A stretch of 64,000 nucleotides of DNA from an uncultured Gammaproteobacteria bacterium. Its GTDB lineage: Bacteria; Patescibacteriota; Patescibacteriia; UBA9934; GWF2-40-263. The position numbers and the translations under genes are program-made. The notes under the pieces were generated by a model. It searched no databases. It was not told the origin of the DNA and saw only the letters and a list, made by a program, of their open reading frames with translations. Position 1 is the stretch's first letter. Each line of letters begins with the position of its first letter. The stretch lies in contig CAYNRK010000005.1 of the NCBI GenBank assembly GCA_964399675.1, forward strand, positions 766 through 64,765, read 5' to 3'. Below, piece after piece: positions 3,465 through 61,444 of this stretch.

Positions 3465-3508
3465 AACGCCTCCTTTTGTAGACGTAAGTTGGTAAGGTGC
3501 AGGGAGTG

Positions 3509-3537
3509 AAGATACCAGAAAATAAGGCTTTTGTCAA
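3509..3537 (-). promoter_or_regulatory. Sigma70-type promoter of paralog 1 (TTGACA-17-TATCTT)
   Basis: rc of 3509-3537 reads TTGACAaaagccttattttctggTATCTT. It is followed by the conserved leader ..ccttaccaacttacgtctacaaaaggagg and then GTG. Confidence 0.55.
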
Positions 3538-3546
3538 TAGTTAAAA

Positions 3547-3575: not shown

Positions 3576-3584
3576 TTAATAGAA

Positions 3585-3652
3585 ACACCCGCCGTCGCTC
3601 TTGTAGAGCTATGGCGGGCGAGGCCCCCGTAGCCAGCTGGCCGCGGGGGTGT
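3585..3652 (-). terminator. Terminator region of paralog 2 (two GC hairpins)
   Basis: acccgccgtcgctc..gagctatggcgggcg and cccccgtagccagctggccgcggggg. T-rich on the minus strand after the first (rc of aatagaaac). Confidence 0.45.
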
Positions 3653-5137: not shown

Positions 5138-5183
5138 TAGACGTCTCCTTTGTAGACGTAAGTTGGTAAGGTGCGGAGAATGA

Positions 5184-5212
5184 AGATACCACAAAATAGG
5201 CTTTTTGTCAAT
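5184..5212 (-). promoter_or_regulatory. Sigma70-type promoter of paralog 2 (TTGACA-17-TATCTT)
   Basis: rc reads TTGACAaaaagcctattttgtggTATCTT, followed by the conserved leader. Confidence 0.5.
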
Positions 5213-5215
5213 ATT

Positions 5216-5332: not shown

Positions 5333-5344
5333 TTTTCCAAATAG

Positions 5345-5385
5345 AAACACCCGCCGTCGCTCTTGTTGAGCTATGGCAGGTGAAG
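5345..5385 (-). terminator. Terminator of paralog 3
   Basis: acccgccgtcgctcttgttgagctatggcaggtg hairpin, preceded on plus by aaatagaaac (a T-run on the minus transcript). Confidence 0.45.
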
Positions 5386-6466: not shown

Positions 6467-6513
6467 TGGCCGTCTCCTTGTGGTAGACGTAGGTTGATAA
6501 GGTACGGAGAGTT

Positions 6514-6542
6514 AAGATACTACAAAATCAGCTTTTTGTCAA
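6514..6542 (-). promoter_or_regulatory. Sigma70-type promoter of paralog 3 (TTGACA-17-TATCTT)
   Basis: rc reads TTGACAaaaagctgattttgtagTATCTT plus the conserved leader. Confidence 0.5.
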
Positions 6543-6549
6543 TAATAGA

Positions 6550-7728: not shown

Positions 7729-7768
7729 CGGTACTCTCCTTGATCGTATTGGTAAGGTGCGGAGAGTT

Positions 7769-7797
7769 AAGATATTACAAAATTAGCTTTTTGTCAA
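7769..7797 (-). promoter_or_regulatory. Sigma70-type promoter of paralog 4 (TTGACA-17-TATCTT)
   Basis: rc reads TTGACAaaaagctaattttgtaaTATCTT plus the conserved leader. Confidence 0.5.
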
Positions 7798-7804
7798 TAC
7801 GAAA

Positions 7805-8730: not shown

Positions 8731-9228
8731 GTCTCAGGATATGTCTGTAAGCCGAATTTTGTCTTCCCTTGGTTTTCACCAAGAGGAGGTGGAAATCTAT
8801 CTAGCCTGACCATTGCTGGCCAGATCATGCGAGCTACCAAATTTGCTCTTACACCGGAAAGGGTTTGCCACGTCTCCATGTCACCATGGGACGAAACATG
8901 TAGCAGATGAAATAAATCTCAACCACACCATGTCACTTTTCACGTTTCATTCAGCCGAAGCTGAACTAGTATCGTCTCTGCGGCACTTTCCCTAGGCTTA
9001 AGTTCAGATGCCAAGGAGTGAATAAATCCAACTCCTCGATTTCTGATTTGTATACCCGGTCGCCGTTAGCGACTTTCCTTTTTTTGTAAGGTTGCCCTAT
9101 ACAAAGGTGTTCGGACTTTCCTCGTATCCACAAAGGACACGTATCCACCCGACATTCCTGGGACGCGGAGATAGTACCAAAGATAGGACAAAAAGTCAAG
9201 GTTGTTTACTTTAATTAAGTTAAAACGA

Positions 9229-9262
9229 AAACCCGCCGTTGCTCCTTCGGAGCTATGGCGGG
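9229..9262 (-). terminator. Terminator of 9316..10335
   Basis: cccgccgttgctccttcggagctatggcggg hairpin; minus transcript followed by ttttcgtttt. Confidence 0.45.
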
Positions 9263-9315
9263 CAGGCGCGCTCTTGGCGCGTTGAGTGGGGTCGTGTTTT
9301 TTGAAACTGTCTTTG

Positions 9316-13706: not shown

Positions 13707-13793
13707 TGGTGGGCGAGGAGGGACTCGAACCCTCACGAGGAAACCTCACTACGCCCTGAACGTAGCGCGTCTACCAGTTCCGCCACTCGCCCA
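13707..13793 (-). tRNA. tRNA-Leu (anticodon CAG), CCA encoded
   Basis: The rc folds as GGGCGAG / D-arm GCGG..AACTGGTAGA / anticodon stem CTACG-TTCAGGG-CGTAG (anticodon CAG) / long variable arm GAGGTTTCCTC / T-arm GAGGG-TTCGAGT-CCCTC / CTCGCCC-A-CCA. Confidence 0.85.
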
Positions 13794-35223: not shown

Positions 35224-35973
35224 TTAGATCAGTTGCAATCGTCCCAGTTGCTTTAGAGCCAGCAAGGTCACGACATGTGAAGAGGCCTCAAGGACGAGTC
35301 CTTGAGTAATGAGCTTCCACCACTCTGAAAGTGGAACAAGTATACATGCAAGGTGTTCGGTCCCATCAAGCGAAGACGGCTGTGGACGGATGGGCTCTTT
35401 TATGATTCCCAGGAACGGGAAAACGAGCTGATTGGTTTGGCGAGAGCTGACTGCAATGCCATGGTCTGACAATGGTGTCAGGCTTTCCAAAGCCAGTCCG
35501 GTTTCTTCTTCGAACTCGCGCTTGGCGCATCGTTCCATTGGACAAGGGTGTGTTTGATCTTTCTTGTTTGGAACCCCGGCCGGTGGAGAAAGCGAAAGGA
35601 CTTCAGCTCCATGCTTCCACTCACCAATGATGGGGACAAGCTCCTCACCGTCTTCGTGTTGGTTGGGCACCAGAGCAAAGACAGTTCCCCAATCTCGTCC
35701 CATGCTTCGAAATCCAGTGAACAGCCTTCCGTTGGGCTGTTCAAAGAACGCTGCCTGCGCTTGAGGAGCAAAACGTGCCAGCTCCTCACGTTGGGGATCA
35801 CTCAGATCGCTTTCTGCGTACGTTACCAAGTCCTGCGGAGGTCTGAGTTGGCGCCAGGCTTGAATACCTAGTTGTTCCAGCTCTGCAAAGACCGTGTCTG
35901 ATGTTACGATTGGAAGACCGTATTGTGTTTCCACGTTTCCTCTTTTACAGCATGAATATGCGGAGACATCCAA
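35224..35973 (-). CDS. NUDIX-family hydrolase (possibly GDP-sugar hydrolase, Gmm/NudD-like by context)
   Basis: NUDIX-box-like ..ERCAKREFEEETGL. GC-rich ORF, unlike its neighbours. Its adjacency to fcl mirrors the gmd-fcl-gmm arrangement of colanic-acid loci; that link is inference. Confidence 0.5.
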   Translation of the reverse strand: MDVSAYSCCKRGNVETQYGLPIVTSDTVFAELEQLGIQAWRQLRPPQDLVTYAESDLSDPQREELARFAPQAQAAFFEQPNGRLFTGFRSMGRDWGTVFALVPNQHEDGEELVPIIGEWKHGAEVLSLSPPAGVPNKKDQTHPCPMERCAKREFEEETGLALESLTPLSDHGIAVSSRQTNQLVFPFLGIIKEPIRPQPSSLDGTEHLACILVPLSEWWKLITQGLVLEASSHVVTLLALKQLGRLQLI

Positions 35974-37852: not shown

Positions 37853-39061
37853 TTATTTATACAAAATACCACGCTCTATTAAATTATTTGCAACGTGCTT
37901 GGCAATCACATTGTTAAAATAAGGAGTGTAGTGAACCGCATCAACATACAAGTTACCTTCTTCTGCTTCTTGAAGACTCGATAGATCTAAAAAGTTTTTT
38001 TGTAATGCCTCATGTTTTTCATCAACCAGCTTTTGCATCAGTTCATACCCTTTGCTTGCCCGACTTCCCATTCCATAAGGATAAAACAAATGTTTTTTTC
38101 TTTCGTACTTATAGGTTGGGGTTGGCTGCCAAATAAATAATGTCTTGAATCCAAAGTTCATTGCAATCGATTCAATGATTTTTTTGTTAATTAGATAACG
38201 CTGAATCGTTAACTTTAAATTTTCATCAGAAAGCTCATTGTCTTCAGAAGCATCAGCATCTTTCGTTTCTTTATTGGAAATTTTTCGCATAACAGACGCT
38301 ACGGCTCTGTTTACTGGTAAGCGCGTGAAGATATCTTTTATCTCTTTTAAAATGATTTTTTCATGTCTTAAGCTTCCCTGGGTTTTAAACATCTCTGTAA
38401 GTTTTTGAGTTTTTTTGGTTTGAGTGGAAATTTTAGTTGGAGCATAGTCATAAGAAAGGTCATTAATTCCATCAATAAAAATTACAACATCCGGATTAAA
38501 TCCTTTCTCTAAGAGGATTTCTAAGAAAATCCTTTCCTGGGTGCTATAAAAGGAACCAACACCAAAATTGTAAATTGCAATATCTTCCATTTTGTCACGC
38601 AGTTGTTCTTGAAGCTGTGATGCAATGGTCTGGTGATCTGCAACTCCTGCTCCATAGGTTGTTGATCCGCCAAAAATGAAAACATTAATATTTTTTTCAC
38701 TTGGTGGCCATGAAGCTTGTTTTTTTATGTACCGAAATCCTTCCTTACTAATATTCACGTATTTACCACTATAACTAGTGTGCATGACTTGTGTGTATGG
38801 GTGATATTCTAATTTTGGATACCAATTTTCCTTGAGAAGTTCGCGAATCTCTTCGTCAGGGAGCTTGGGATAAGCAAGCCTCGCTTTATCAATACCATAA
38901 GATAATGCTCCTGGATTTTCTTTGTACTCCTCATCAGCTACGAAGTATAATAAACCAAGAATCAAATTTAATATAAGAAATATAATAGAACCAATAATAA
39001 GAATCAAAACAGAATCATAAAACAACCGCCTTCCTTTTTTTTCTTTTATTCCGTTCTTCAT
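37853..39061 (-). CDS. Membrane-anchored SGNH/GDSL-like hydrolase (candidate polysaccharide esterase/acyltransferase partner)
   Basis: N-terminal TM. GDS-like block FIFGGSTTYGAG and a DGINDL block in the typical SGNH order. Confidence 0.45.
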   Translation of the reverse strand: MKNGIKEKKGRRLFYDSVLILIIGSIIFLILNLILGLLYFVADEEYKENPGALSYGIDKARLAYPKLPDEEIRELLKENWYPKLEYHPYTQVMHTSYSGKYVNISKEGFRYIKKQASWPPSEKNINVFIFGGSTTYGAGVADHQTIASQLQEQLRDKMEDIAIYNFGVGSFYSTQERIFLEILLEKGFNPDVVIFIDGINDLSYDYAPTKISTQTKKTQKLTEMFKTQGSLRHEKIILKEIKDIFTRLPVNRAVASVMRKISNKETKDADASEDNELSDENLKLTIQRYLINKKIIESIAMNFGFKTLFIWQPTPTYKYERKKHLFYPYGMGSRASKGYELMQKLVDEKHEALQKNFLDLSSLQEAEEGNLYVDAVHYTPYFNNVIAKHVANNLIERGILYK

Positions 39062-39121
39062 AATGCTATAAAACCTTCAGGTGGGTACACTGAGTGTATA
39101 ACTCACTAACCCATTAAGGTT

Positions 39122-40165
39122 ATGTTAAATACTAAAGAGTATGTTGGTGTGGATCTGCACAAGAGGTTCTTTGTTGCACACTTCACCAACGAGAAAGGTC
39201 AACAGTCTCAGACAAAGAAGTATGAGACCAATCGTGATGAGATTGAGGTGTTCATGGACGACCTTCACCCGCAGGCTTCTATTGCAGTGGAACCGGTAAG
39301 CCAGTGGTCCTGGTTCTGTGACACACTTGAGCGTGAGGGGTTTGACACCCATCTTGCTCATCCTATGCAAGTAAAGGCCATAGCCAATGCTCGCATTAAG
39401 ACAGACAAGATCGACGCCAAAGTCCTGGCAGATCTGTTACGGTGCAATATGCTTCCTGAAGCATATCAGTCTCCACTACACGTTCGTGAGTGGAAAGAAC
39501 TCACAAGACATCGTGTGTCTTTTGTACGTCAGAGAACACAGAACATGAATAGAATTCATGCAATTCTGTTCAAGAACGCTCTTCACTATGAAGGAAGACT
39601 TTGGGGAAAGACGGGAAGGAAATGGCTCAAGGATCAGGATCTTTCAAACCATCACAAGATGTTGGTTGGCGAACACTTGCAAACCATAGATGAGCTCAAT
39701 GCACAGATAGACAGGATTGCAACAATCATTCAGACAACCGTGGAGAACCACGAGGGAGCAAAGCTCCTTACCACCATTCCAGGCATTAGCTATATCTGGG
39801 CTCTCACCATTATGGCAGAGATTGGAGACATTGCTCGTTTCAAGAAGGCCAAGAAGCTCATGAGCTATGCCGGGCTTGTGCCTTCAACATATTCATCAGG
39901 AGGAAACACCAGGCATGGCAGGATCACCAAGAGAGGATCTAATTGGCTTCGTCTTGCCATGATTGAAGTAACGCATGTACAAGGAAGACTCAGAAAGAGT
40001 CATGGCCTTAGGTGGTACTACAACAAGATGAAGACAAGAAAAGATACAAAGACAGCAGCCGTTGCGACTGCCAGAAAACTTCTGGCAGTCGTCTGGACCG
40101 TCCTTACGGAGAATCGTCCATATGAGGACCGTCCACGATCTGGGAATAGTGAAGTGCGCACCTAA
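39122..40165 (+). CDS. IS110-family transposase (DEDD RuvC-like N-domain + Transposase_20 C-domain)
   Basis: N-terminal YVGVDLHKRFF (DEDD_Tnp_IS110-like). C-terminal ..LLTTIPGISYIWALTIMAEIGDIARFKKAKKLMSYAGLVPSTYSSGGNTRHGRITKRGSNWLRLAMIE.. is the canonical IS110 family C-domain. Confidence 0.9.
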   Translation: MLNTKEYVGVDLHKRFFVAHFTNEKGQQSQTKKYETNRDEIEVFMDDLHPQASIAVEPVSQWSWFCDTLEREGFDTHLAHPMQVKAIANARIKTDKIDAKVLADLLRCNMLPEAYQSPLHVREWKELTRHRVSFVRQRTQNMNRIHAILFKNALHYEGRLWGKTGRKWLKDQDLSNHHKMLVGEHLQTIDELNAQIDRIATIIQTTVENHEGAKLLTTIPGISYIWALTIMAEIGDIARFKKAKKLMSYAGLVPSTYSSGGNTRHGRITKRGSNWLRLAMIEVTHVQGRLRKSHGLRWYYNKMKTRKDTKTAAVATARKLLAVVWTVLTENRPYEDRPRSGNSEVRT

Positions 40166-40353
40166 TAATATTCACCCGCTCTGCGCGTTAGGTGCTTTTC
40201 ATAATTGTGCGGTTTCACTCACCCCACCAGCATTCTGTGGTATGACAGTCTCTTTAAAAGACAGTCTGACTTTAAGAGTCACCACGTATCGGTAACTGGC
40301 AGATCGCCCTTCTTTTAGAAGGACGATGCTGACCCAAGAATCTTTAACGACCT
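40166..40353 (+). ncRNA. Candidate IS110-family bridge RNA locus (3' non-coding end of the IS)
   Basis: Inference only. IS110/IS1111 elements encode a structured guide (bridge) RNA in their larger non-coding end. This ~190-nt region is rich in local dyads (gtctctttaaaagacagtc, gactttaagagtc). Confidence 0.25.
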
Positions 40354-41546
40354 CTGGCCGTCGCAACGGCTGCTGTCTTTATAATATCTTGAAATGAACT
40401 CATCTGAGTTTTAGAACATTCATATGCTCTAAGACTCAATGAAATCAGTTCGTACTTATCCACTGGACAGGTTTTATCGGTATTATTTGAGGATGAAGAA
40501 ATTTTAAGATCCAATAGATTTGTAAGTTGTTCCCAAGTATTTTTTTTATTGAATCGTTTTGTGTCCATTATTGCTTGTGGCCGTATCTTATTCAATTCAT
40601 TCTCAGGAGCATTGATTGCCTTATCAATTTGAGATAAAAGGGAATTTTGGTTTCTGTCCTTAGCTAAAAAGCAGTTATCTTCATTCATCCATTCTAGTCC
40701 TCCTCCCATAGCAAAACCAATGACCACGCATCCCAACCAAGCGGCTTCCACTGGCGGCATTGGAAATCCAAGCAAATGTCCTTTAGGAACAATCCAGTCA
40801 TTTTTGTTTTTTAGTATCTCACGGAAATCAGATGAGATCATATACTTTATTCCTTTTTTGATTTGATGTTTCAATTTTGGTTTTTCAATACCATCGTCAG
40901 TGCTGATAAAATATTTGTGACAAAGAAGCTCTTCAAAAAAATCGCGCTCATGAAATGGTTGGGTTAAAATGGTAATTCTTTCTCGACTGGAAAAATGTTT
41001 TTGTATTAGGGGGATATATTTTTGACCTCGTCTTGCCAGAATTAATATTCCATCTCGATCCAACTCGGCTCTTTCCTGAAACTCTTTCATTGTTGGCGAA
41101 TCAAAAAAAGGATGAACAATAGACATTTTGAGATTATGGTTTTTCTGAAAATAATCCCCACACGCTTTGCTTACATTCCAATGTTGAGTGTAAGGATTTC
41201 CTTGGCAAAACACACTATCCCCAATAGTTAGTCCGCCTTTTGGAACAGACGCACCATGCTGCCAGAAGACTCGTGTTTGATTCCTTTTTTGAGATGCAAT
41301 ATTAACCAACCTTTTGTCTGCCCAAAAATCTATCGTAATATCTTCTTTTTTTAGTTGAGAAGAATATTCTTCAATATTGATTGTTTTTGCAGGTTGATCA
41401 AGAAATGTTGCTTTTTGAGAATTATCTGCACAAACAACAAAACTTTCAAAACCATGTTCTTCAAAGAGCACGGCAACTTGATTCATCACTTTGACACCAC
41501 CACTTGGCTTGTTTGAAGGGCCGGTGATAAAGATTTGCATATTCAA
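40344..41546 (-). CDS. Glycosyltransferase-like protein whose 3' end is replaced by IS-derived sequence
   Basis: 400 aa. GT-B-like C-terminal region (..[19 protein letters not shown]..). The last residues ..[13 protein letters not shown] are encoded by the inverted-repeat copy of transposase codons ([12 protein letters not shown]), so the IS inserted into this gene's 3' end. Confidence 0.5.
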
Positions 41547-42553
41547 AGCACAACTCCGTTCATTTGATCTTCCAAAAGTTTTTTATCCTCATCTACCATT
41601 ATTTTTACTAAATCATGAAATTTCATTTTCGCCTCCCAGTTTAATTCGTTTTTTGCTTTTGTAGTATCGCCTATGAGCACATGTGCTTCAGTGGGACGAA
41701 AGTAACGTTGGTCAATTTCTACATAGTTATTCCAGTCACCTAATCCGGCACAACGAAACGCTTCCTCAACAAATTCTTTTACAGAGTGAGTTTCTCCTGT
41801 TGCTATTACGTAGTCATCAGGTTTGTCTTGTTGCAACATTAACCACATGGCTTCGACATATTCTTTTGCATAACCCCAATCCCGCTTGGCATCAAGGTTT
41901 CCTAAGTAAAGTTTTTTATCCAACCCCGCTTGAATCCTTGCTATACCACGAGTGATTTTTCTTGTTACAAAGGTCTCTCCTCTGCGCGGAGATTCATGAT
42001 TAAACAAAATACCATTACATGCAAACATGTCGTAAGCATTTCGATAATTTCGTGTTGTATGATAGGCAAACACTTTTGCGCAAGCATATGGGCTTTGGGG
42101 ATTAAAACGAGTTTCTTCATTATAAGGTGGGGCAGAAATTGGATTCCCAAACATTTCACTGGAACTTGCCTGATAGAATTTCATTTTTGGATTTACAACT
42201 CGAATGGCATCGAGCACTCTTAATGTTCCAAGTCCGGTAACATCACTGGTGTACTCTGGGATATCAAAGCTAACACGTACATGACTTTGAGCCCCAAGGT
42301 GATAAATTTCATCAGGTTGAATTTTAGTCAAAAGAGCAAGAAGGGTGCCCATATCTGAGAGGTCTCCATAATGCAGATGAAGTCGTCGTTCGCTTTCATG
42401 TGGGTCTTGATAAATATGGTCAATTCGAGGGGTGTTCAATGTGCTTGAACGGCGAATTAGCCCATGTACTTCGTATCCTTTTTTTAATAAAAATTCAGCA
42501 AGGTATGAACCGTCTTGTCCTGTAATGCCCGTGATAAAAGCTTTTTTGTCCAT
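41543..42553 (-). CDS. gmd: GDP-mannose 4,6-dehydratase
   Basis: [27 protein letters not shown].., the catalytic YxxxK region and other Gmd-specific blocks ([25 protein letters not shown]). Confidence 0.92.
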
Positions 42554-57153: not shown

Positions 57154-57229
57154 GGGGGCGTAGCTCAGCGGTTAGAGCGCCAAGCTTATACCTTGGTGGT
57201 CGATGGTTCGAATCCATCCGCCCCCACCA
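57154..57229 (+). tRNA. tRNA-Ile (anticodon TAT/UAU), CCA encoded
   Basis: GGGGGCG-TA-GCTC-AGCGGTTA-GAGC-G-CCAAG-CTTATAC-CTTGG-TGGTC-GATGG-TTCGAAT-CCATC-CGCCCCC-A-CCA. Anticodon-loop positions 34-36 are TAT. Confidence 0.75.
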
Positions 57230-57687: not shown

Positions 57688-57764
57688 GGGCGTATAGCTC
57701 AGTTGGTTAGAGCGTCGCATTGACATTGCGGAGGTCAGAGGTTCGAATCCTCTTACGCCCACCA
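57688..57764 (+). tRNA. tRNA-Val (anticodon GAC), CCA encoded
   Basis: GGGCGTA-TA-GCTC-AGTTGGTTA-GAGC-G-TCGCA-TTGACAT-TGCGA-GGTCAG-AGG-TTCGAAT-CCT-CTTACGCCC-A-CCA. Confidence 0.85.
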
Positions 57765-59530: not shown

Positions 59531-61444
59531 ATGAAAAAGATCGCCGTCCTCTTCCCAACGCTTGCAATCGCCCTTTTCGGCATTGTGGGCATCGGCGTCT
59601 CCACGGTTTTTGCAGCCGGTAGCGCAACTATGAATCTCTCGCCAACGAATGTTTCCGTTGACCCTGGTGAGACATTTACGCTCAGTGTTGTAGTAAATCC
59701 AAATGGAGCATCGCTCGATACAGTGCGACTGAATATCAGATACGATTCAGACGCCATTGAGGCTTTGTCATATGACAACGGAAGCCTCTTTCCATTCCTT
59801 TCTCCAGCTAACGAGATTGATAACGACTCCGATGGAGTTGGAGAACTCAGTTATGGGGCATTCAAATTTGGATCTCCTGTAACAAGCTCTGGTGTTGTAG
59901 GAACTGTTACGTTCCGCGCACTGACTGGCGGAAGCCATACTGTAACCGTGAACAGCACATCAAAGCTGATCTCTGACGGAATTGAAAAACTTAATACAAG
60001 CAACTTGGGATCAACAAGCGTTTCTGTTAGTGGCGGAAGTGCAGATAAGACACAGCTTACAGACACACCAACAGCAGACGTCACAATTGGTGGCGAAACA
60101 GAAGAGGATGCAACTGATGAAGAAAATGCTCTTACATATTTCACCGCTCTTGCAGGCCGCACCCCATCAACGCTAGAAGATTGGGACATGCACCAGTGCA
60201 TAATTGATGACTCCTGTCTTGATGTAAATGCCCGAGACCTTAGTTATGAAAATGCTGCACTTGCTTTCTTTAACAACGTATTCGGAACTAATCCATCTTC
60301 AGCAATGGATTGGAACTCAGTGCATGCACTTGCATATACAAGTGTTGGACAAGGGATTCTGGGGCTTGAACCATTAAGTACTGAAGTAGTGGAAACACCA
60401 ACAGCAACGGAAACTCCCGCAGCAGAGGAAGAGGCTGCTGAGGAAGAAGAAGTCGTGGAAGAAGAAAAAGACTACTCAGTAATGACAGATGTAGAAAAAG
60501 AAGCAACAGCACTTAAGTACTTCGGAGCATTCTACGGACGCATGCCAAGTTCCGGTAATGATTGGGACGCATTGCACTGCATGGCTTATGGCGGATGCCA
60601 AGGTGATCCACGAGATGTAGAGGCAGAAGCAGCAGCTCTTGAAACTTATGGAGCTAAGTACGGCAAGATGCCGGAAACAACAATTGAATGGAACACACTC
60701 CACGTTCTTGCTTACACAGATTTGTTGCAAGCAGGAGAAGAAGAGGTCGGAGAGGTTGAAGAGGTCGAAGAAGTCGAAGAGGTTGTCGAAGAGGAAGTGG
60801 TTGTTGAAGAGGTAGTTGAGGAAGTTGTTGAGGAAGAAGAAAAAGACTACTCAGTAATGACAGATGTAGAAAAAGAAGCAACAGCACTTAAGTACTTCGG
60901 AGCATTCTACGGACGCATGCCAAGTTCCGGTAATGATTGGGACGCATTGCACTGCATGGCTTATGGCGGATGCCAAGGTGATCCACGAGATGTAGAGGCA
61001 GAAGCAGCAGCTCTTGAAACTTATGGAGCTAAGTACGGCAAGATGCCGGAAACAACAATTGAATGGAACACACTCCACGTTCTTGCTTACACAGATTTGT
61101 TGCAAGCAGGAGAAGAAGAGGTCGGAGAGGTTGAAGAGGTCGAAGAAGTCGAAGAGGTTGTCGAAGAGGAAGTGGTTGAAGGAGAAGTTGTTGAGGAAGA
61201 ATCAGATGAACTTACTGATGAAGATGCAATCGGTCTTTATGGACAGATTTATGGAGAGTTGCCAGGGGATGGAAATAGCGGCTGGTCTTTCGTTGACATT
61301 GCTGTGAATGGATACACAGGCGAACGAGATCTGGATGCTGAAGCAGCAGCACTTGAAACTTACACCTCAACCTTTAATAGTCTTCCTGCAAGTGATTCAG
61401 ATTGGAGAGTAATGGATGCAATCGCTTATTCAACAACTAGTTAA
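59531..61444 (+). CDS. Secreted protein with N-terminal cohesin-like domain and repeated acidic ~40-aa C-terminal modules
   Basis: Signal peptide. Cohesin-like beta-sandwich pattern (ATMNLSPTNVSVDPGETFTLSVVVNPNGASLDTVRLNIRYDSDAIEAL..GVVGTVTFRALTGGSHTVTV). Then at least 6 copies of a module E..AL.YF...YGR.P....DW..LH..AY... separated by EEV acidic linkers. Confidence 0.55.
   Translation: MKKIAVLFPTLAIALFGIVGIGVSTVFAAGSATMNLSPTNVSVDPGETFTLSVVVNPNGASLDTVRLNIRYDSDAIEALSYDNGSLFPFLSPANEIDNDSDGVGELSYGAFKFGSPVTSSGVVGTVTFRALTGGSHTVTVNSTSKLISDGIEKLNTSNLGSTSVSVSGGSADKTQLTDTPTADVTIGGETEEDATDEENALTYFTALAGRTPSTLEDWDMHQCIIDDSCLDVNARDLSYENAALAFFNNVFGTNPSSAMDWNSVHALAYTSVGQGILGLEPLSTEVVETPTATETPAAEEEAAEEEEVVEEEKDYSVMTDVEKEATALKYFGAFYGRMPSSGNDWDALHCMAYGGCQGDPRDVEAEAAALETYGAKYGKMPETTIEWNTLHVLAYTDLLQAGEEEVGEVEEVEEVEEVVEEEVVVEEVVEEVVEEEEKDYSVMTDVEKEATALKYFGAFYGRMPSSGNDWDALHCMAYGGCQGDPRDVEAEAAALETYGAKYGKMPETTIEWNTLHVLAYTDLLQAGEEEVGEVEEVEEVEEVVEEEVVEGEVVEEESDELTDEDAIGLYGQIYGELPGDGNSGWSFVDIAVNGYTGERDLDAEAAALETYTSTFNSLPASDSDWRVMDAIAYSTTS
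60461..61180 (+). repeat. Perfect 375-bp tandem duplication inside 59531..61444
   Basis: gaagaaaaagactactcagtaatgacag... recurs exactly 375 nt later (60461 vs 60836). The antisense ORFs 60476..60730 and 60851..61105 are identical 84-mers. The second copy diverges after ~340 nt. Confidence 0.85.

What the first reader, a model, noticed from the sequence alone, without database searches (positions are those of the whole stretch)
39062..41546. IS110/IS1111-family element inserted into the 3' end of a glycosyltransferase gene, with a long 3' non-coding end (bridge-RNA candidate) and a 24-bp inverted repeat
A GC-rich ~1.3-kb IS carries a DEDD-type transposase and lies within the AT-rich glycan locus. 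It has only ~60 nt of non-coding sequence 5' of the transposase but ~190 nt 3' of it (40166-40353), the arrangement of the IS1111 subgroup. In recently characterised IS110-family recombinases the larger non-coding end encodes the structured bridge (guide) RNA. A 24-bp inverted repeat (1 mismatch) pairs transposase codons (40051-40074, ..[12 protein letters not shown]) with the element's outer edge (40354-40377). The outer copy supplies the last codons (..[11 protein letters not shown]) of the minus-strand GT gene 40344..41546, so that gene's native C-terminus was displaced.
Basis: partly seen in the sequence, partly recalled or inferred. Interest (0 to 1): 0.6.

Follow-up and report, generated by a model that had tools for sequence, protein, structure and literature searches.

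The report
IS1111-type element with embedded bridge RNA
This is a 1.42-kb RNA-guided insertion sequence in a probable candidate-phyla-radiation bacterium, and the reported inverted repeat is a conserved long helix that ties transposase codons to the non-coding tail and encloses the element's guide (bridge) RNA.

Summary
The transposase and the inverted repeat are real, but the element's limits and the glycosyltransferase (GT) claim are wrong. Related copies in other contexts show the IS runs to ...ATCGGTA at 40482, not about 40353-40377. It is 1,420 bp (39063-40482), and a TA core sits at both junctions (39061-62 and 40481-82). The 3' non-coding end is 317 nt.

GT orthologues stop about 7 codons before the junction. 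The IS therefore lengthens that ORF by 47 codons rather than displacing its C-terminus.

The repeat (40045-75 / 40353-83) lies inside the IS. It is present in every relative with at least 45% transposase identity and adequate flank, covaries at synonymous codon positions, and is absent at 43% or below.

Inside it lies a two-loop bridge/seek RNA. The target loop has one guide on the stop codon (40164-71) and one at 40196-205. The donor loop has guides at 40229-34 and 40287-94. Each guide covaries with its own flank or IS end across about 50 elements. A covariance model built without this subclade hits 40151-40311 (E=8e-9).

Verdict: a new IS1111-group member with a previously undescribed closing helix that uses coding sequence. 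What that helix does is inferred, not shown.

The parts
39055..39060 (+). Left target half (LT), TCTTCA. This is host DNA matched by the left-target guide UUUUCA, with one U.G wobble at 39056.
   Evidence: Flanks of copies of near-identical IS diverge upstream of these 4-6 nt. The guide matches its own left flank at 4.48 of 6 positions against 3.19 when shuffled, 0/2000.
39061..39062 (+). Left copy of the core dinucleotide TA (inferred crossover site). Its T also supplies the A of the ATG of the minus-strand GDSL gene.
   Evidence: TA is invariant at this position of the left end and as the last 2 nt of the right end in all relatives.
39063..40482 (+). The IS itself, 1,420 bp, counting one core copy.
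   Evidence: blastn and MAFFT against L007-L011 and L092-93 in other contexts. Clade-wide conserved ends.
39068..39076 (+). Left subterminal inverted repeat, ATAAAACCT. The overlapping TATAAA (39067-72) is the predicted -10 of the circle-junction promoter.
   Evidence: Best inverted match between the left and right ends in most relatives. Coordinates.
39122..40165 (+). Transposase/recombinase gene, 347 aa. D11, E57, D95/D98 and S259-G260 are invariant in the alignment.
   Evidence: Pfam PF01548 and PF02371. Invariant columns.
40045..40075 (+). 5' arm of the long helix H1, inside codons D308-R318 (..[10 protein letters not shown]).
40065..40091 (+). Local hairpin (12 bp, perfect) that competes with H1 for 40065-40075.
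   Evidence: pair I13. Covariation at wobble positions and G.U on the + strand.
40157..40160 (+). Helix H2, 5' strand (GCAC), inside the last codons. It pairs with 40207-40210 and closes the target-binding loop.
   Evidence: Columns 153-156:232-235. Pair 154:234 is CG18/UA18/GC11/UG5.
40164..40171 (+). Right-target guide AAUAAUAU, overlapping stop codon TAA 40163-65. It is complementary to the target top strand A|TA|TTATT.
   Evidence: Guide against own right flank: contiguous match 2.46 against 0.70 shuffled, 0/5000. The window guide predicts TTATTAGG and the flank is TTATTTGA.
40173..40194 (+). Helix H3 hairpin (CACC 40173-76 : GGTG 40191-94), the inner stem of the target-binding loop.
   Evidence: Columns 168-171:216-219, 98.6% paired. 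The window's CACC:GGTG is compensatory to CGTC:GACG in other relatives.
40196..40205 (+). Left-target guide UUUUCA-UA-AU: left target half, core, then the first 2 nt of the IS left end.
   Evidence: The extension equals the first 2 nt of the left end in 46/52 elements.
40207..40210 (+). Helix H2, 3' strand (GUGC).
40229..40234 (+). Right-donor guide AGCAUU, complementary to AATGCT (39062-67) at the IS left end.
   Evidence: Seen by inspection of the alignments, no permutation test: left-end GCT/GGT/GAT/GAC goes with guide AGC/ACC/AUC/GUC across subclades.
40236..40286 (+). Helix H4 (UGUGG 40236-40 : CCACG 40282-86). Its apical loop is enlarged in this subclade: cmsearch skips 39 nt (40244-40282) where the model has 3.
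   Evidence: Columns 264-268:325-329, 95.4% paired. Insertion visible.
40287..40294 (+). Left-donor guide UAUCGG-UA, a same-sense copy of the IS right end plus core (40475-82).
   Evidence: The guide 6-mer equals the element's own right-end 6-mer in 51/52 elements (TCGGTA 37, TTGGTA 8, TCGATA 5, TTGATA 1).
40353..40383 (+). 3' arm of helix H1.
40384..40455 (+). Variable spacer with a subclade-specific hairpin. No clade-wide consensus structure.
40456..40463 (+). TTATCCAC, a motif resembling a DnaA box. Role unknown.
   Evidence: At least 8/9 match to TTATCCACA on the + strand in 18/45 distinct right ends, against 2.3% of shuffles.
40464..40469 (+). TGGACA (TTGACA in most relatives), the predicted -35 of the circle-junction promoter. 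It lies 13 nt from the right end.
   Evidence: The 17-nt spacing to TATAAA is read from the sequence.
40469..40477 (+). Right subterminal inverted repeat, AGGTTTTAT.
40481..40482 (+). Right copy of the core TA, the last bases of the IS.
40483..40487 (+). Right target half (RT), TTATT. This is host DNA. On the minus strand it is codons ..NN of the extended GT ORF.
40488..41546 (-). Native part of the glycosyltransferase gene. Orthologues end near 40509.

Best explanation
Window 39063-40482 is an intact IS1111-group (IS110-family) insertion sequence in a probable Patescibacteria genome. It sits at a TA within TCTTCA|TA|TTATT, between a GT gene and a GDSL-lipase gene.

Its recombinase is guided by a bridge (seek) RNA transcribed as the 3' part of the transposase transcript. 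The RNA has two stem-loop arms, each carrying an internal loop.
- The target-binding loop (between helices H2 and H3) reads the right target half with a guide that overlaps the stop codon. It reads the left target half plus core with a second guide on its 3' side.
- The donor-binding loop (between helices H5 and H4) reads the IS left end with its 5' side. It reads the IS right end plus core with its 3' side.

The 31-bp inverted repeat is helix H1. It pairs codons 308-318 ([10 protein letters not shown]) with non-coding sequence 188 nt beyond the stop codon. It therefore closes a domain of about 340 nt that holds the last 30 codons and both guide loops. A 12-bp local hairpin competes for the same 5' arm.

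Shown here: the element's limits, the helices, the guide-to-DNA covariation, and the clade-specific conservation of H1.

Inferred: H1 acts in the + strand RNA as a closing or insulating stem for the guide domain. It may also serve as a double-strand-RNase (RNase III-type) processing site or a 3'-end-defining site, and its formation competes with translation through the 5' arm. Also inferred: excision to a circle rebuilds a promoter, TGGACA, then 17 nt, then TATAAA.
For: Limits of the element:
- Homology with relatives at 91% and 82% protein identity, in several different flanking contexts, runs from 39054/57 to about 40485.
- Clade-wide ends are ..CA|TA|ATGCT-ATAAAxCC and TTGACR-GGTTTTAT-CGG|TA.

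Helix H1:
- Present in every relative with at least 45% identity and enough 3' flank (49 distinct helices, 16-34 bp). Absent in all relatives at 43% or below.
- Pairs 23:459 (GC26/AU12/UA8) and 26:456 (CG20/UA20/GC7/AU3) are compensatory at synonymous positions.

Whole structure (H1-H4): 91.2% of cells paired against 78.5% shuffled. Covariation score 0.375 against 0.143, 0/500. Slid controls give 24-54%.

Local hairpin: covariation 0.274 against 0.127, 0/500. G.U occurs in 49/52 and 25/52 sequences at two pairs, which is + strand RNA evidence for that hairpin only.

Guides:
- Left-donor guide equals the element's own right end in 51/52.
- Left-target guide against own left flank: 0/2000 shuffles reach the observed identity.
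- Right-target guide against own right flank: 0/5000.
- Right-donor guide tracks GCT/GGT/GAT/GAC variants of the left end (by inspection).

Helix H5: duplex energy -6.09 for own partner against -4.72 for swapped partners, 0/300.

Covariance model R1 was built from 32 elements that exclude this subclade. It gives one hit in the 64-kb window, 40151-40311, 42.7 bits, E=7.6e-9, full length.

Family features match published IS1111 descriptions: subterminal repeats, 3' non-coding region, junction promoter, RNA made from the transposase transcript (PMC11187229). The two-loop logic with the core included in each pairing also matches (PMC11208160).
Against: - No RNA data. Transcription, RNA ends and recombinase binding are untested.
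- Rfam 15 has no matching family.
- Mismatches inside H1 show no + strand G.U excess (G.U 28, A.C 35, other 54). An RNA-level role for H1, as opposed to a DNA-level role or repeat homogenisation, is therefore not demonstrated.
- The unconstrained minimum-energy fold of the window RNA prefers an alternative pairing (40158-65 with 40188-95) over H2/H3, with z-score only -1.8.
- The target match is short and A/T-rich (5 nt of the right half; 6 nt of the left half with one wobble).
- No empty site was found. The reconstructed empty site leaves the GT frame open into the GDSL ORF, which is odd.
- All 14 contigs that carry this exact transposase show the same single insertion, so activity of this particular copy is unproven.
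Confidence: 0.75

Rival explanations
1. First reader's model. The IS ends at about 40353-40377, the outer repeat copy marks its edge and provides the GT gene's last codons, and the GT C-terminus was displaced.
For: The minus-strand ORF 40344-41546 does read ..[11 protein letters not shown] through the repeat.
Against: Relatives in unrelated contexts share about 100 nt beyond the repeat, up to ..ATCGGTA. The repeat is present in about 50 diverged elements that have no GT gene next to them. GT orthologues end about 7 codons before the junction.
Confidence: 0.02
2. The repeat is a chance match or a decaying remnant, for example a fragment of a second inverted IS copy or an old partial duplication of the transposase 3' end, with no function.
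For: The 3' arm read on the minus strand mimics the conserved AAVATAR peptide. Ala/Val/Thr codons make the arm quasi-palindromic.
Against: The repeat is kept at the same place in all elements down to 45% protein identity. There are 12 pairs with changes on both sides, and no shuffle reaches the observed covariation. An unselected 25-30-bp repeat would not survive that much divergence.
Confidence: 0.03
3. H1 is selected at the DNA level rather than the RNA level. It could be a hairpin in single-stranded DNA during replication or transfer, or a protein-recognised inverted repeat. Alternatively the arms are kept alike by gene conversion.
For: Mismatches inside H1 show no G.U-over-A.C bias on either strand (28 against 35).
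Against: H1 exactly brackets an RNA domain whose inner helices behave as + strand RNA, with U.G pairs in H2 and H4. The competing local hairpin has G.U in 49/52 sequences. The arms are 190-280 bp apart in duplex DNA, which is unfavourable for cruciform extrusion. IS110-family transposition uses a double-stranded circle (PMC11208160). Conversion between 25-bp repeats is inefficient (general knowledge, not tested).
Confidence: 0.12
4. H1 is mainly a translational or stability device for the transposase mRNA. It would act as a 3' exonuclease barrier or a ribosome roadblock lowering transposase output, and is irrelevant to guide-RNA maturation.
For: Its 5' arm lies in the ORF 30 codons before the stop. 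No terminator-like site follows the element apart from a weak one inside the 3' arm itself. Many IS elements damp transposase expression through mRNA structure (general knowledge; ISPpu9 5'-UTR structure, PMC12288879).
Against: Nothing excludes it, and it can coexist with the closing-stem role. The precise enclosure of both guide loops argues that the guide domain is what is being delimited.
Confidence: 0.2

Closest known systems
IS1111-family elements with seekRNA (ISEc11, ISPa11, ISKpn4, ISPst6; Siddiquee et al. 2024, PMC11187229)
   Same: - DEDD transposase of 330-350 aa with the GLxPxxxxS/TG motif.
- Subterminal inverted repeats and a long non-coding region downstream of tnp.
- Size of about 1.4 kb (ISEc11 is 1,443 bp) and no real target duplication.
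- A -35 in the right end and a -10 in the left end that would join in a circle.
- A guide RNA derived from the tnp transcript, in which the segment complementary to the top strand lies 5' of the one complementary to the bottom strand. The same order is seen in both loops here.
   Different: - Transposase identity is only about 25% to IS5075 and at most 38% to any plasmid-borne relative.
- The core is TA and the target is A/T-rich.
- The right-target guide and one strand of H2 lie inside the ORF or on the stop codon.
- A 16-34-bp helix (H1) pairs conserved codons with the non-coding end and encloses the whole RNA. No comparable inverted repeat was found in IS5075 or a Rhizobium relative, and none is mentioned in the papers read.
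IS621 / IS110-group bridge RNA (Durrant et al. 2024, PMC11208160; Hiraizumi et al. 2024, PMC11208158)
   Same: - Two internal loops, one for the target and one for the donor.
[quoted passage not shown] - The recombinase has invariant D, E and D residues and an S-G pair.
   Different: - The RNA is 3' of the gene rather than in the left end.
- The order of the two guides within each loop is reversed.
- The core is TA rather than CT.
- The RNA is embedded in the mRNA 3' end and closed by H1.
- Their discovery pipeline took only 50 bp of 3' coding sequence. The H1 5' arm, 90-120 nt before the stop, would fall outside it.
IS4321/IS5075 (IS1111 family; Partridge and Hall 2003, as cited in PMC11208160)
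   Same: Subterminal inverted repeats with short terminal extensions, orientation-specific insertion at a defined sequence, and no duplication.
   Different: [quoted passage not shown] Identity is 24.5%. No helix between coding sequence and non-coding end was found.

Membership tests
IS110 family (DEDD recombinase IS) | N-terminal RuvC-like DEDD domain (PF01548) | tested here: met
   E=8.8e-22, residues 8-149. D11, E57, D95 and D98 are invariant in 36 homologues.
IS110 family (DEDD recombinase IS) | C-terminal Tnp domain (PF02371) with conserved Ser-Gly | tested here: met
   E=3.3e-24, residues 214-289. YAGLVPSTYSSG is present, and S259 and G260 are invariant.
IS110 family (DEDD recombinase IS) | Site-specific insertion with a short core repeated at both junctions and no longer target duplication | tested here: met
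   TA is present at both junctions in all about 50 elements. The flanks are otherwise unrelated.
IS1111 group | Subterminal inverted repeats of 7-17 bp | tested here: met
   ATAAAACCT 39068-76 and AGGTTTTAT 40469-77, 9 bp. They lie 5 nt (after the core) and 5 nt (including the core) from the ends. The same repeat type is seen across the clade.
IS1111 group | The longer non-coding end lies downstream of the transposase gene | tested here: met
   59 nt upstream against 317 nt downstream, using the corrected ends.
IS1111 group | Transposase related over its full length to IS1111-type enzymes, 330-350 aa | tested here: inconclusive
   Length 347 aa and the motif fit (criteria). Identity to IS5075 is only 24.5% over 95% of the length. 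No phylogeny with ISfinder references was possible.
IS1111 group | Circular intermediate whose junction creates a promoter | not testable with these tools
   From sequence only: TGGACA (TTGACA in relatives), then 13 nt of right end plus ATGC, then TATAAA, giving a 17-nt spacer.
Bridge RNA / seekRNA | Structured RNA with conserved, covarying helices next to the recombinase gene | tested here: met
   H2, H3 and H4 are 92-99% paired and 12 of their 14 pairs change on both sides. Model R1 hits the window at E=7.6e-9.
Bridge RNA / seekRNA | Loop segments that match both strands of the target around the core | tested here: met
   Left-target guide against own left flank, 0/2000. Right-target guide against own right flank, 0/5000.
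Bridge RNA / seekRNA | Loop segments that match the element's own ends (donor) | tested here: met
   Left-donor guide equals own right end in 51/52. Right-donor guide tracks left-end variants (inspection, no permutation test).
Bridge RNA / seekRNA | The RNA is expressed, binds the recombinase and is needed for recombination | not testable with these tools
   No transcript or biochemical data.
Any curated Rfam family | A hit at or above the gathering score | tested here: not met
   Nothing in 38800-40700 even at E<=10 apart from two chance-level hits. The whole window gives only RNase P RNA and tRNAs.

The most novel reading that the evidence does not exclude
H1 and its competing local hairpin form a switch that couples translation to guide-RNA biogenesis. 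While ribosomes read codons 308-323, H1 cannot form and the transcript serves as mRNA. Once translation has cleared, the free 5' half of the arm nucleates on the 3' arm, displaces the hairpin and forms a perfect duplex of about 30 bp. A double-strand RNase such as RNase III cuts that duplex. The cut releases the bridge RNA, which carries the last 30 codons, and at the same time removes the stop codon from the mRNA. This would be a previously undescribed route by which an RNA-guided transposon carves its guide out of its own open reading frame and limits its own transposase output. It would also mean that retargeting the guide rewrites the protein's C-terminal tail.
Probability: 0.25. Interest if true: 0.7.

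Novelty: new variant of a known kind. Interest (0 to 1): 0.55.

Why it matters
Bridge/seek-RNA recombinases are recent programmable genome-editing enzymes. How IS1111-type guides are produced from the transposase transcript is unresolved: PMC11187229 only infers that the short RNA derives from a longer one.

This clade is largely from Patescibacteria. It offers four things:
- A compact 1.42-kb system with a TA core and fully mapped guide positions.
- A guide that lies inside the reading frame or on the stop codon.
- A strongly covarying 16-34-bp helix that uses conserved codons as one strand and brackets the guide RNA. This gives a concrete, testable handle on guide maturation and on coupling between translation and guide release.
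- A caution for discovery pipelines. Those that look only at non-coding flanks, or at 50 bp or less of coding sequence, would miss this part of the RNA.

For genome annotation, the 400-aa "GT" ORF is a chimera with 47 IS-derived codons.

Tried and rejected
- Rfam scan of 38800-40700 at E<=10 gave only two chance-level hits. The whole window at gathering score gave only RNase P RNA and three tRNAs.
- A single-protein scan of reference genomes found no close relative. The alignment-based scans worked.
- An exact-pattern search for the empty GT-GDSL junction in JGI metagenomes gave 0 hits. The empty site is therefore reconstructed, not observed.
- All 14 contigs carrying the exact transposase show the same insertion, so there is no second copy of this element to compare.
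- I first read the left end as TTCATAATGC.. or as starting 4 nt upstream with CATAAT as the -10. I tried TT/YT, AT, AAT and 4-bp cores. All failed across copies. Only TA is invariant at both junctions.
- The G.U-versus-A.C test meant to assign H1 to + strand RNA showed no bias. My earlier impression of G.U enrichment came from a scoring scheme that favoured G.U, and I dropped it.
- The unconstrained fold of 40150-40352 does not reproduce H2/H3. The window structure rests on homology and the covariance model.
- The spacer between the H1 3' arm and the right subterminal repeat has no clade-wide consensus structure.
- Orthologous GT loci lack the GDSL gene, so they cannot show the ancestral junction.
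- Full-text searches found no description of bridge-RNA processing, RNase III involvement or a helix between coding sequence and non-coding end. The library is incomplete, so this is only absence of evidence.
Full report
**What is at the coordinates.** ORF 39122-40165 (+) encodes a 347-aa protein. It matches DEDD_Tnp_IS110 (PF01548, 8.8e-22) and Transposase_20 (PF02371, 3.3e-24). The stretch has GC 0.44-0.49 in a locus of 0.33-0.37. The inverted repeat is real: 40045-40075 pairs with 40353-40383, 31 nt, 94% complementary. It is one of only five inverted pairs of at least 24 nt in the whole window. The neighbours are minus-strand genes of a glycan locus. They are a GDSL lipase (37853-39061), a weak Glycos_transf_1 protein (40344-41546) and GDP-mannose 4,6-dehydratase (41543-42553).

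**Limits of the element.** The exact transposase occurs on 14 metagenome contigs, all with this same insertion. The closest relatives (91%, L007; 82%, L008-L011, L092-93) sit in several different flanking contexts. Their DNA homology with the window runs from 39054/57 to about 40485.

Two alignment-based scans then gave about 60 elements with 45-57% transposase identity. Where the source organism is named, they come mostly from Patescibacteria (Saccharibacteria, Portnoybacteria). All share these ends:
- Left end: ..CA-TA-ATGCT-ATAAAxCC
- Right end: TTGACR-GGTTTTAT-CGG-TA, after which the flanks diverge

The only bases invariant at both junctions are TA. I take TA as the core. That gives:
- IS = 39063-40482, 1,420 bp, with core copies at 39061-62 and 40481-82.
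- 9-bp subterminal inverted repeats at 39068-76 and 40469-77.
- 59 nt of 5' non-coding sequence and 317 nt of 3' non-coding sequence.

Joining the ends would place TGGACA (TTGACA in most relatives) 17 nt from TATAAA. This is the junction-promoter arrangement reported for ISEc11 (PMC11187229). It is read from sequence only.

**The glycosyltransferase.** Eleven orthologues (56-63% identity, 344-359 aa) are named Uhrbacteria or Parcubacteria where a name exists. They end at ...LLxL, aligned with window residue about 346. The window ORF continues KISSSSNN and then 47 IS-encoded residues. The IS therefore lies just beyond the conserved end of the gene and lengthens the ORF. It did not displace the C-terminus.

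The GDSL start codon uses the left core T, and an empty site would keep it. The reconstructed empty site (..CCGTTCTTCA-TA-TTATTTGAGG..) leaves the GT frame open into the GDSL ORF. I cannot explain this. No empty site was found, and orthologous loci lack the GDSL gene.

**The inverted repeat is a conserved, covarying helix (H1).** In every relative with at least 45% identity and enough 3' flank, the codons for ..AAVATARK.. pair with a non-coding segment. That segment lies 80-150 nt after the stop, or 188-204 nt in the window's subclade. None of the roughly 90 relatives at 43% or below has it. The helices are 16-34 bp long.

Because the 5' arm encodes an invariant peptide, its variation is synonymous, and the non-coding arm follows it. 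Examples are pair 23:459 (GC26/AU12/UA8) and pair 26:456 (CG20/UA20/GC7/AU3).

On alignment A3 (52 sequences), H1 together with three inner helices gives:
- 91.2% standard pairs, against 78.5% in shuffles.
- Covariation score 0.375 against 0.143 (0/500 shuffles reach it).
- 24-54% pairing when partners are slid by 1-3 columns.

A 12-13-bp local hairpin (window 40065-76 / 40080-91) uses the 3' half of the same arm. It also covaries at wobble positions (0.274 against 0.127, 0/500) and has G.U pairs on the + strand in 49/52 and 25/52 sequences. The two structures are mutually exclusive.

**What H1 encloses: a bridge/seek RNA.** Between the arms, RNAalifold and pair counts support these helices:
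- H2, window 40157-60 : 40207-10.
- H3, 40173-76 : 40191-94. The window's CACC:GGTG is compensatory to CGTC:GACG in other relatives.
- H4, 40236-40: 40282-86.
- H5, less well aligned, closing the second loop (own-partner duplex -6.09 against -4.72 kcal/mol for swapped partners, 0/300).

This leaves two internal loops whose four strands match DNA.

1. The 3' side of loop 1 (40196-205, UUUUCA-UA-AU) has the same sense as the left flank plus core.
   - It follows quite different left flanks in other lineages: GCCGGA in L100, AGACA in L094, ACATTG in L130, TTGTGC in L128.
   - Identity to its own flank is 4.48 of 6 against 3.19 shuffled, 0/2000.
   - Its last two bases equal the first two bases of the IS left end in 46/52 elements.
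2. The 5' side of loop 1 (40164-71, AAUAAUAU) is complementary to A-TA-TTATT, which is the core plus the right flank.
   - Across 41 insertions the anchored match to the element's own right flank is 2.46 nt against 0.70 shuffled, 0/5000.
   - Predicted against observed examples: AAACGGTG/AAACGGCG, TTTTTAAG/TTTTTAAA, CAATAAAC/CAATAAGA.
   - In most relatives this guide lies inside the last codons of the ORF. In the window it overlaps the stop codon.
3. The 3' side of loop 2 (40287-94, UAUCGG-UA) copies the IS right end plus core. It tracks right-end variants in 51/52 elements (TCGGTA, TTGGTA, TCGATA, TTGATA).
4. The 5' side of loop 2 (40229-34, AGCAUU) is complementary to AATGCT at the IS left end.
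   - Its centre follows left-end variants: GCT/GGT/GAT/GAC goes with AGC/ACC/AUC/GUC.
   - This was judged by inspection, not by permutation.

This is the two-loop logic of bridge RNAs, with the core included in each pairing (PMC11208160). The strand order within each loop is the one reported for IS1111 seekRNAs, with the top-strand match 5' of the bottom-strand match (PMC11187229).

A covariance model built from 32 elements that exclude the window's subclade finds one hit in the 64-kb window. It covers 40151-40311, scores 42.7 bits at E=7.6e-9, is full length, and has all three modelled helices paired. It also finds weaker hits just after the stop codon in a few distant relatives that lack H1 (L033, L024, L086). 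In the window's subclade the apical loop of H4 is enlarged: cmsearch skips 39 nt (40244-40282) where the model has 3, and this subclade's enclosed domain is about 80-100 nt longer than in typical members.

**How it probably works.**
- Shown: the limits, the helices, the guide-to-DNA covariation, and the clade-specific conservation of H1.
- Inferred from the family: the recombinase, loaded with this RNA, excises the IS as a circle across the TA cores and inserts it at TA sites that match the target loop. For this copy the site is TCTTCA|TA|TTATT, with one U.G wobble.
- Inferred for H1: it is an RNA helix that closes and insulates the guide domain within a long transcript that has no obvious terminator. 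It may be a site for double-strand-specific processing or for 3'-end definition, and translation through codons 308-323 would compete with it.

The caveat for H1 is real. Mismatches inside H1 show no G.U excess on either strand (28 against 35), so a DNA-level constraint is not excluded. The unconstrained fold of the window RNA also prefers an alternative to H2/H3.

**Comparison and novelty.** The element meets the tested IS110 and IS1111 criteria (see the membership table). It is remote from characterised members: 24.5% identity to IS5075 and at most 38% to any plasmid-borne relative. IS5075 and a Rhizobium relative show no comparable inverted repeat between the transposase 3' end and the downstream non-coding region. 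The papers I could read do not describe one. The published discovery pipeline took only 50 bp of 3' coding sequence, which would miss the 5' arm.

I therefore rate this a new variant of a known kind. It is an IS1111-type bridge-RNA element whose guide RNA reaches into the reading frame and is closed by a helix built on coding sequence. Rfam has no family for it.

**Limits of this analysis.**
- No expression or activity data.
- No observed empty site.
- A single insertion of this exact element.
- Host assignment rests on names attached to homologues, not on marker genes.
- Novelty rests on an incomplete literature library.

Noticed in passing
window 40456-40463, and the same relative position in L013, L014, L015, L104, L141, L130 and others: TTATCCAC(A), which equals the DnaA-box consensus as I recall it, sits 27-57 nt from the IS right end. 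It matches at least 8/9 on the + strand in 18 of 45 distinct right ends, against 2.3% of shuffles. It could be a host-factor site, a recombinase site or part of an RNA.
   Followed up: partly
window 35224-35973 (-): A 249-aa ORF with GC 0.52-0.54 lies inside the AT-rich glycan locus. It contains ..REFEEETGL.., which resembles a Nudix box. It may be a horizontally acquired sugar-nucleotide hydrolase. No domain search was run.
   Followed up: no
L008 1-60 against L010 144-230; right flanks L008 1483-1530 = L010 1651-1700: Two contigs carry the same IS (identical protein P0002) and share the right flank but have different left flanks. Either the IS mediated a rearrangement or the assemblies are chimeric across IS copies.
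   Followed up: no
L121 right flank (after ..CGGTA) and L122 right flank: The right flank immediately repeats the left-target-plus-core sequence: TATTCATAA in L121 and TTTTCATAAC in L122. A second target-like site therefore abuts the inserted IS. This could be tandem targets or a footprint of how sites are chosen.
   Followed up: no
window 40483-40510 (minus-strand GT tail) and T-run 40502-40505: In the reconstructed empty site the GT frame runs into the GDSL ATG without a stop. With one base fewer in the A4/T4 run, the GT frame would end in TGA overlapping the GDSL ATG (ATGA). That suggests a frameshift in this lineage. All contigs agree on the present sequence.
   Followed up: partly
window 40241-40281: The enlarged apical loop of helix H4, specific to the window subclade, contains two small hairpins (GACAGUCUCUUUAAAAGACAGUC and UGACUUUAAGAGUCA). 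In the 82% relatives a different sequence fills the same position and includes an extra TTTCATAA copy.
   Followed up: partly
L033 1167-1281, L024 3012-3135, L086 3027-3150: Distant relatives (37-39% transposase identity; Woesearchaeota, Nitrospirae and Chlorobium MAGs) give weaker covariance-model hits right after their stop codons (19-27 bits) but lack helix H1. The two-loop RNA is therefore older than H1.
   Followed up: partly
window 3475-3539, 5149-5213, 6480-6544, 7735-7799; also 3578-3621, 5340-5383, 9222-9265: A 65-nt direct repeat family (68-100% identity) ending ..TTTTTGTCAATA recurs every 1.3-1.7 kb. GC-rich palindromic, terminator-like repeats lie next to it. This looks like a tandem array of paralogous gene cassettes with conserved intergenic signals.
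   Followed up: no
window 60100-61225: A highly repetitive GAA/GAG/GTT-rich coding stretch, including a 300-nt unit duplicated at 98% identity (60443-60742 / 60818-61117). It probably encodes an acidic repeat protein.
   Followed up: no
window 8731-9160 (-), 13710-13792 (-), 57154-57226 (+), 57688-57761 (+): Bacterial class A RNase P RNA (146.5 bits) and three tRNAs. These show the window is chromosomal.
   Followed up: no
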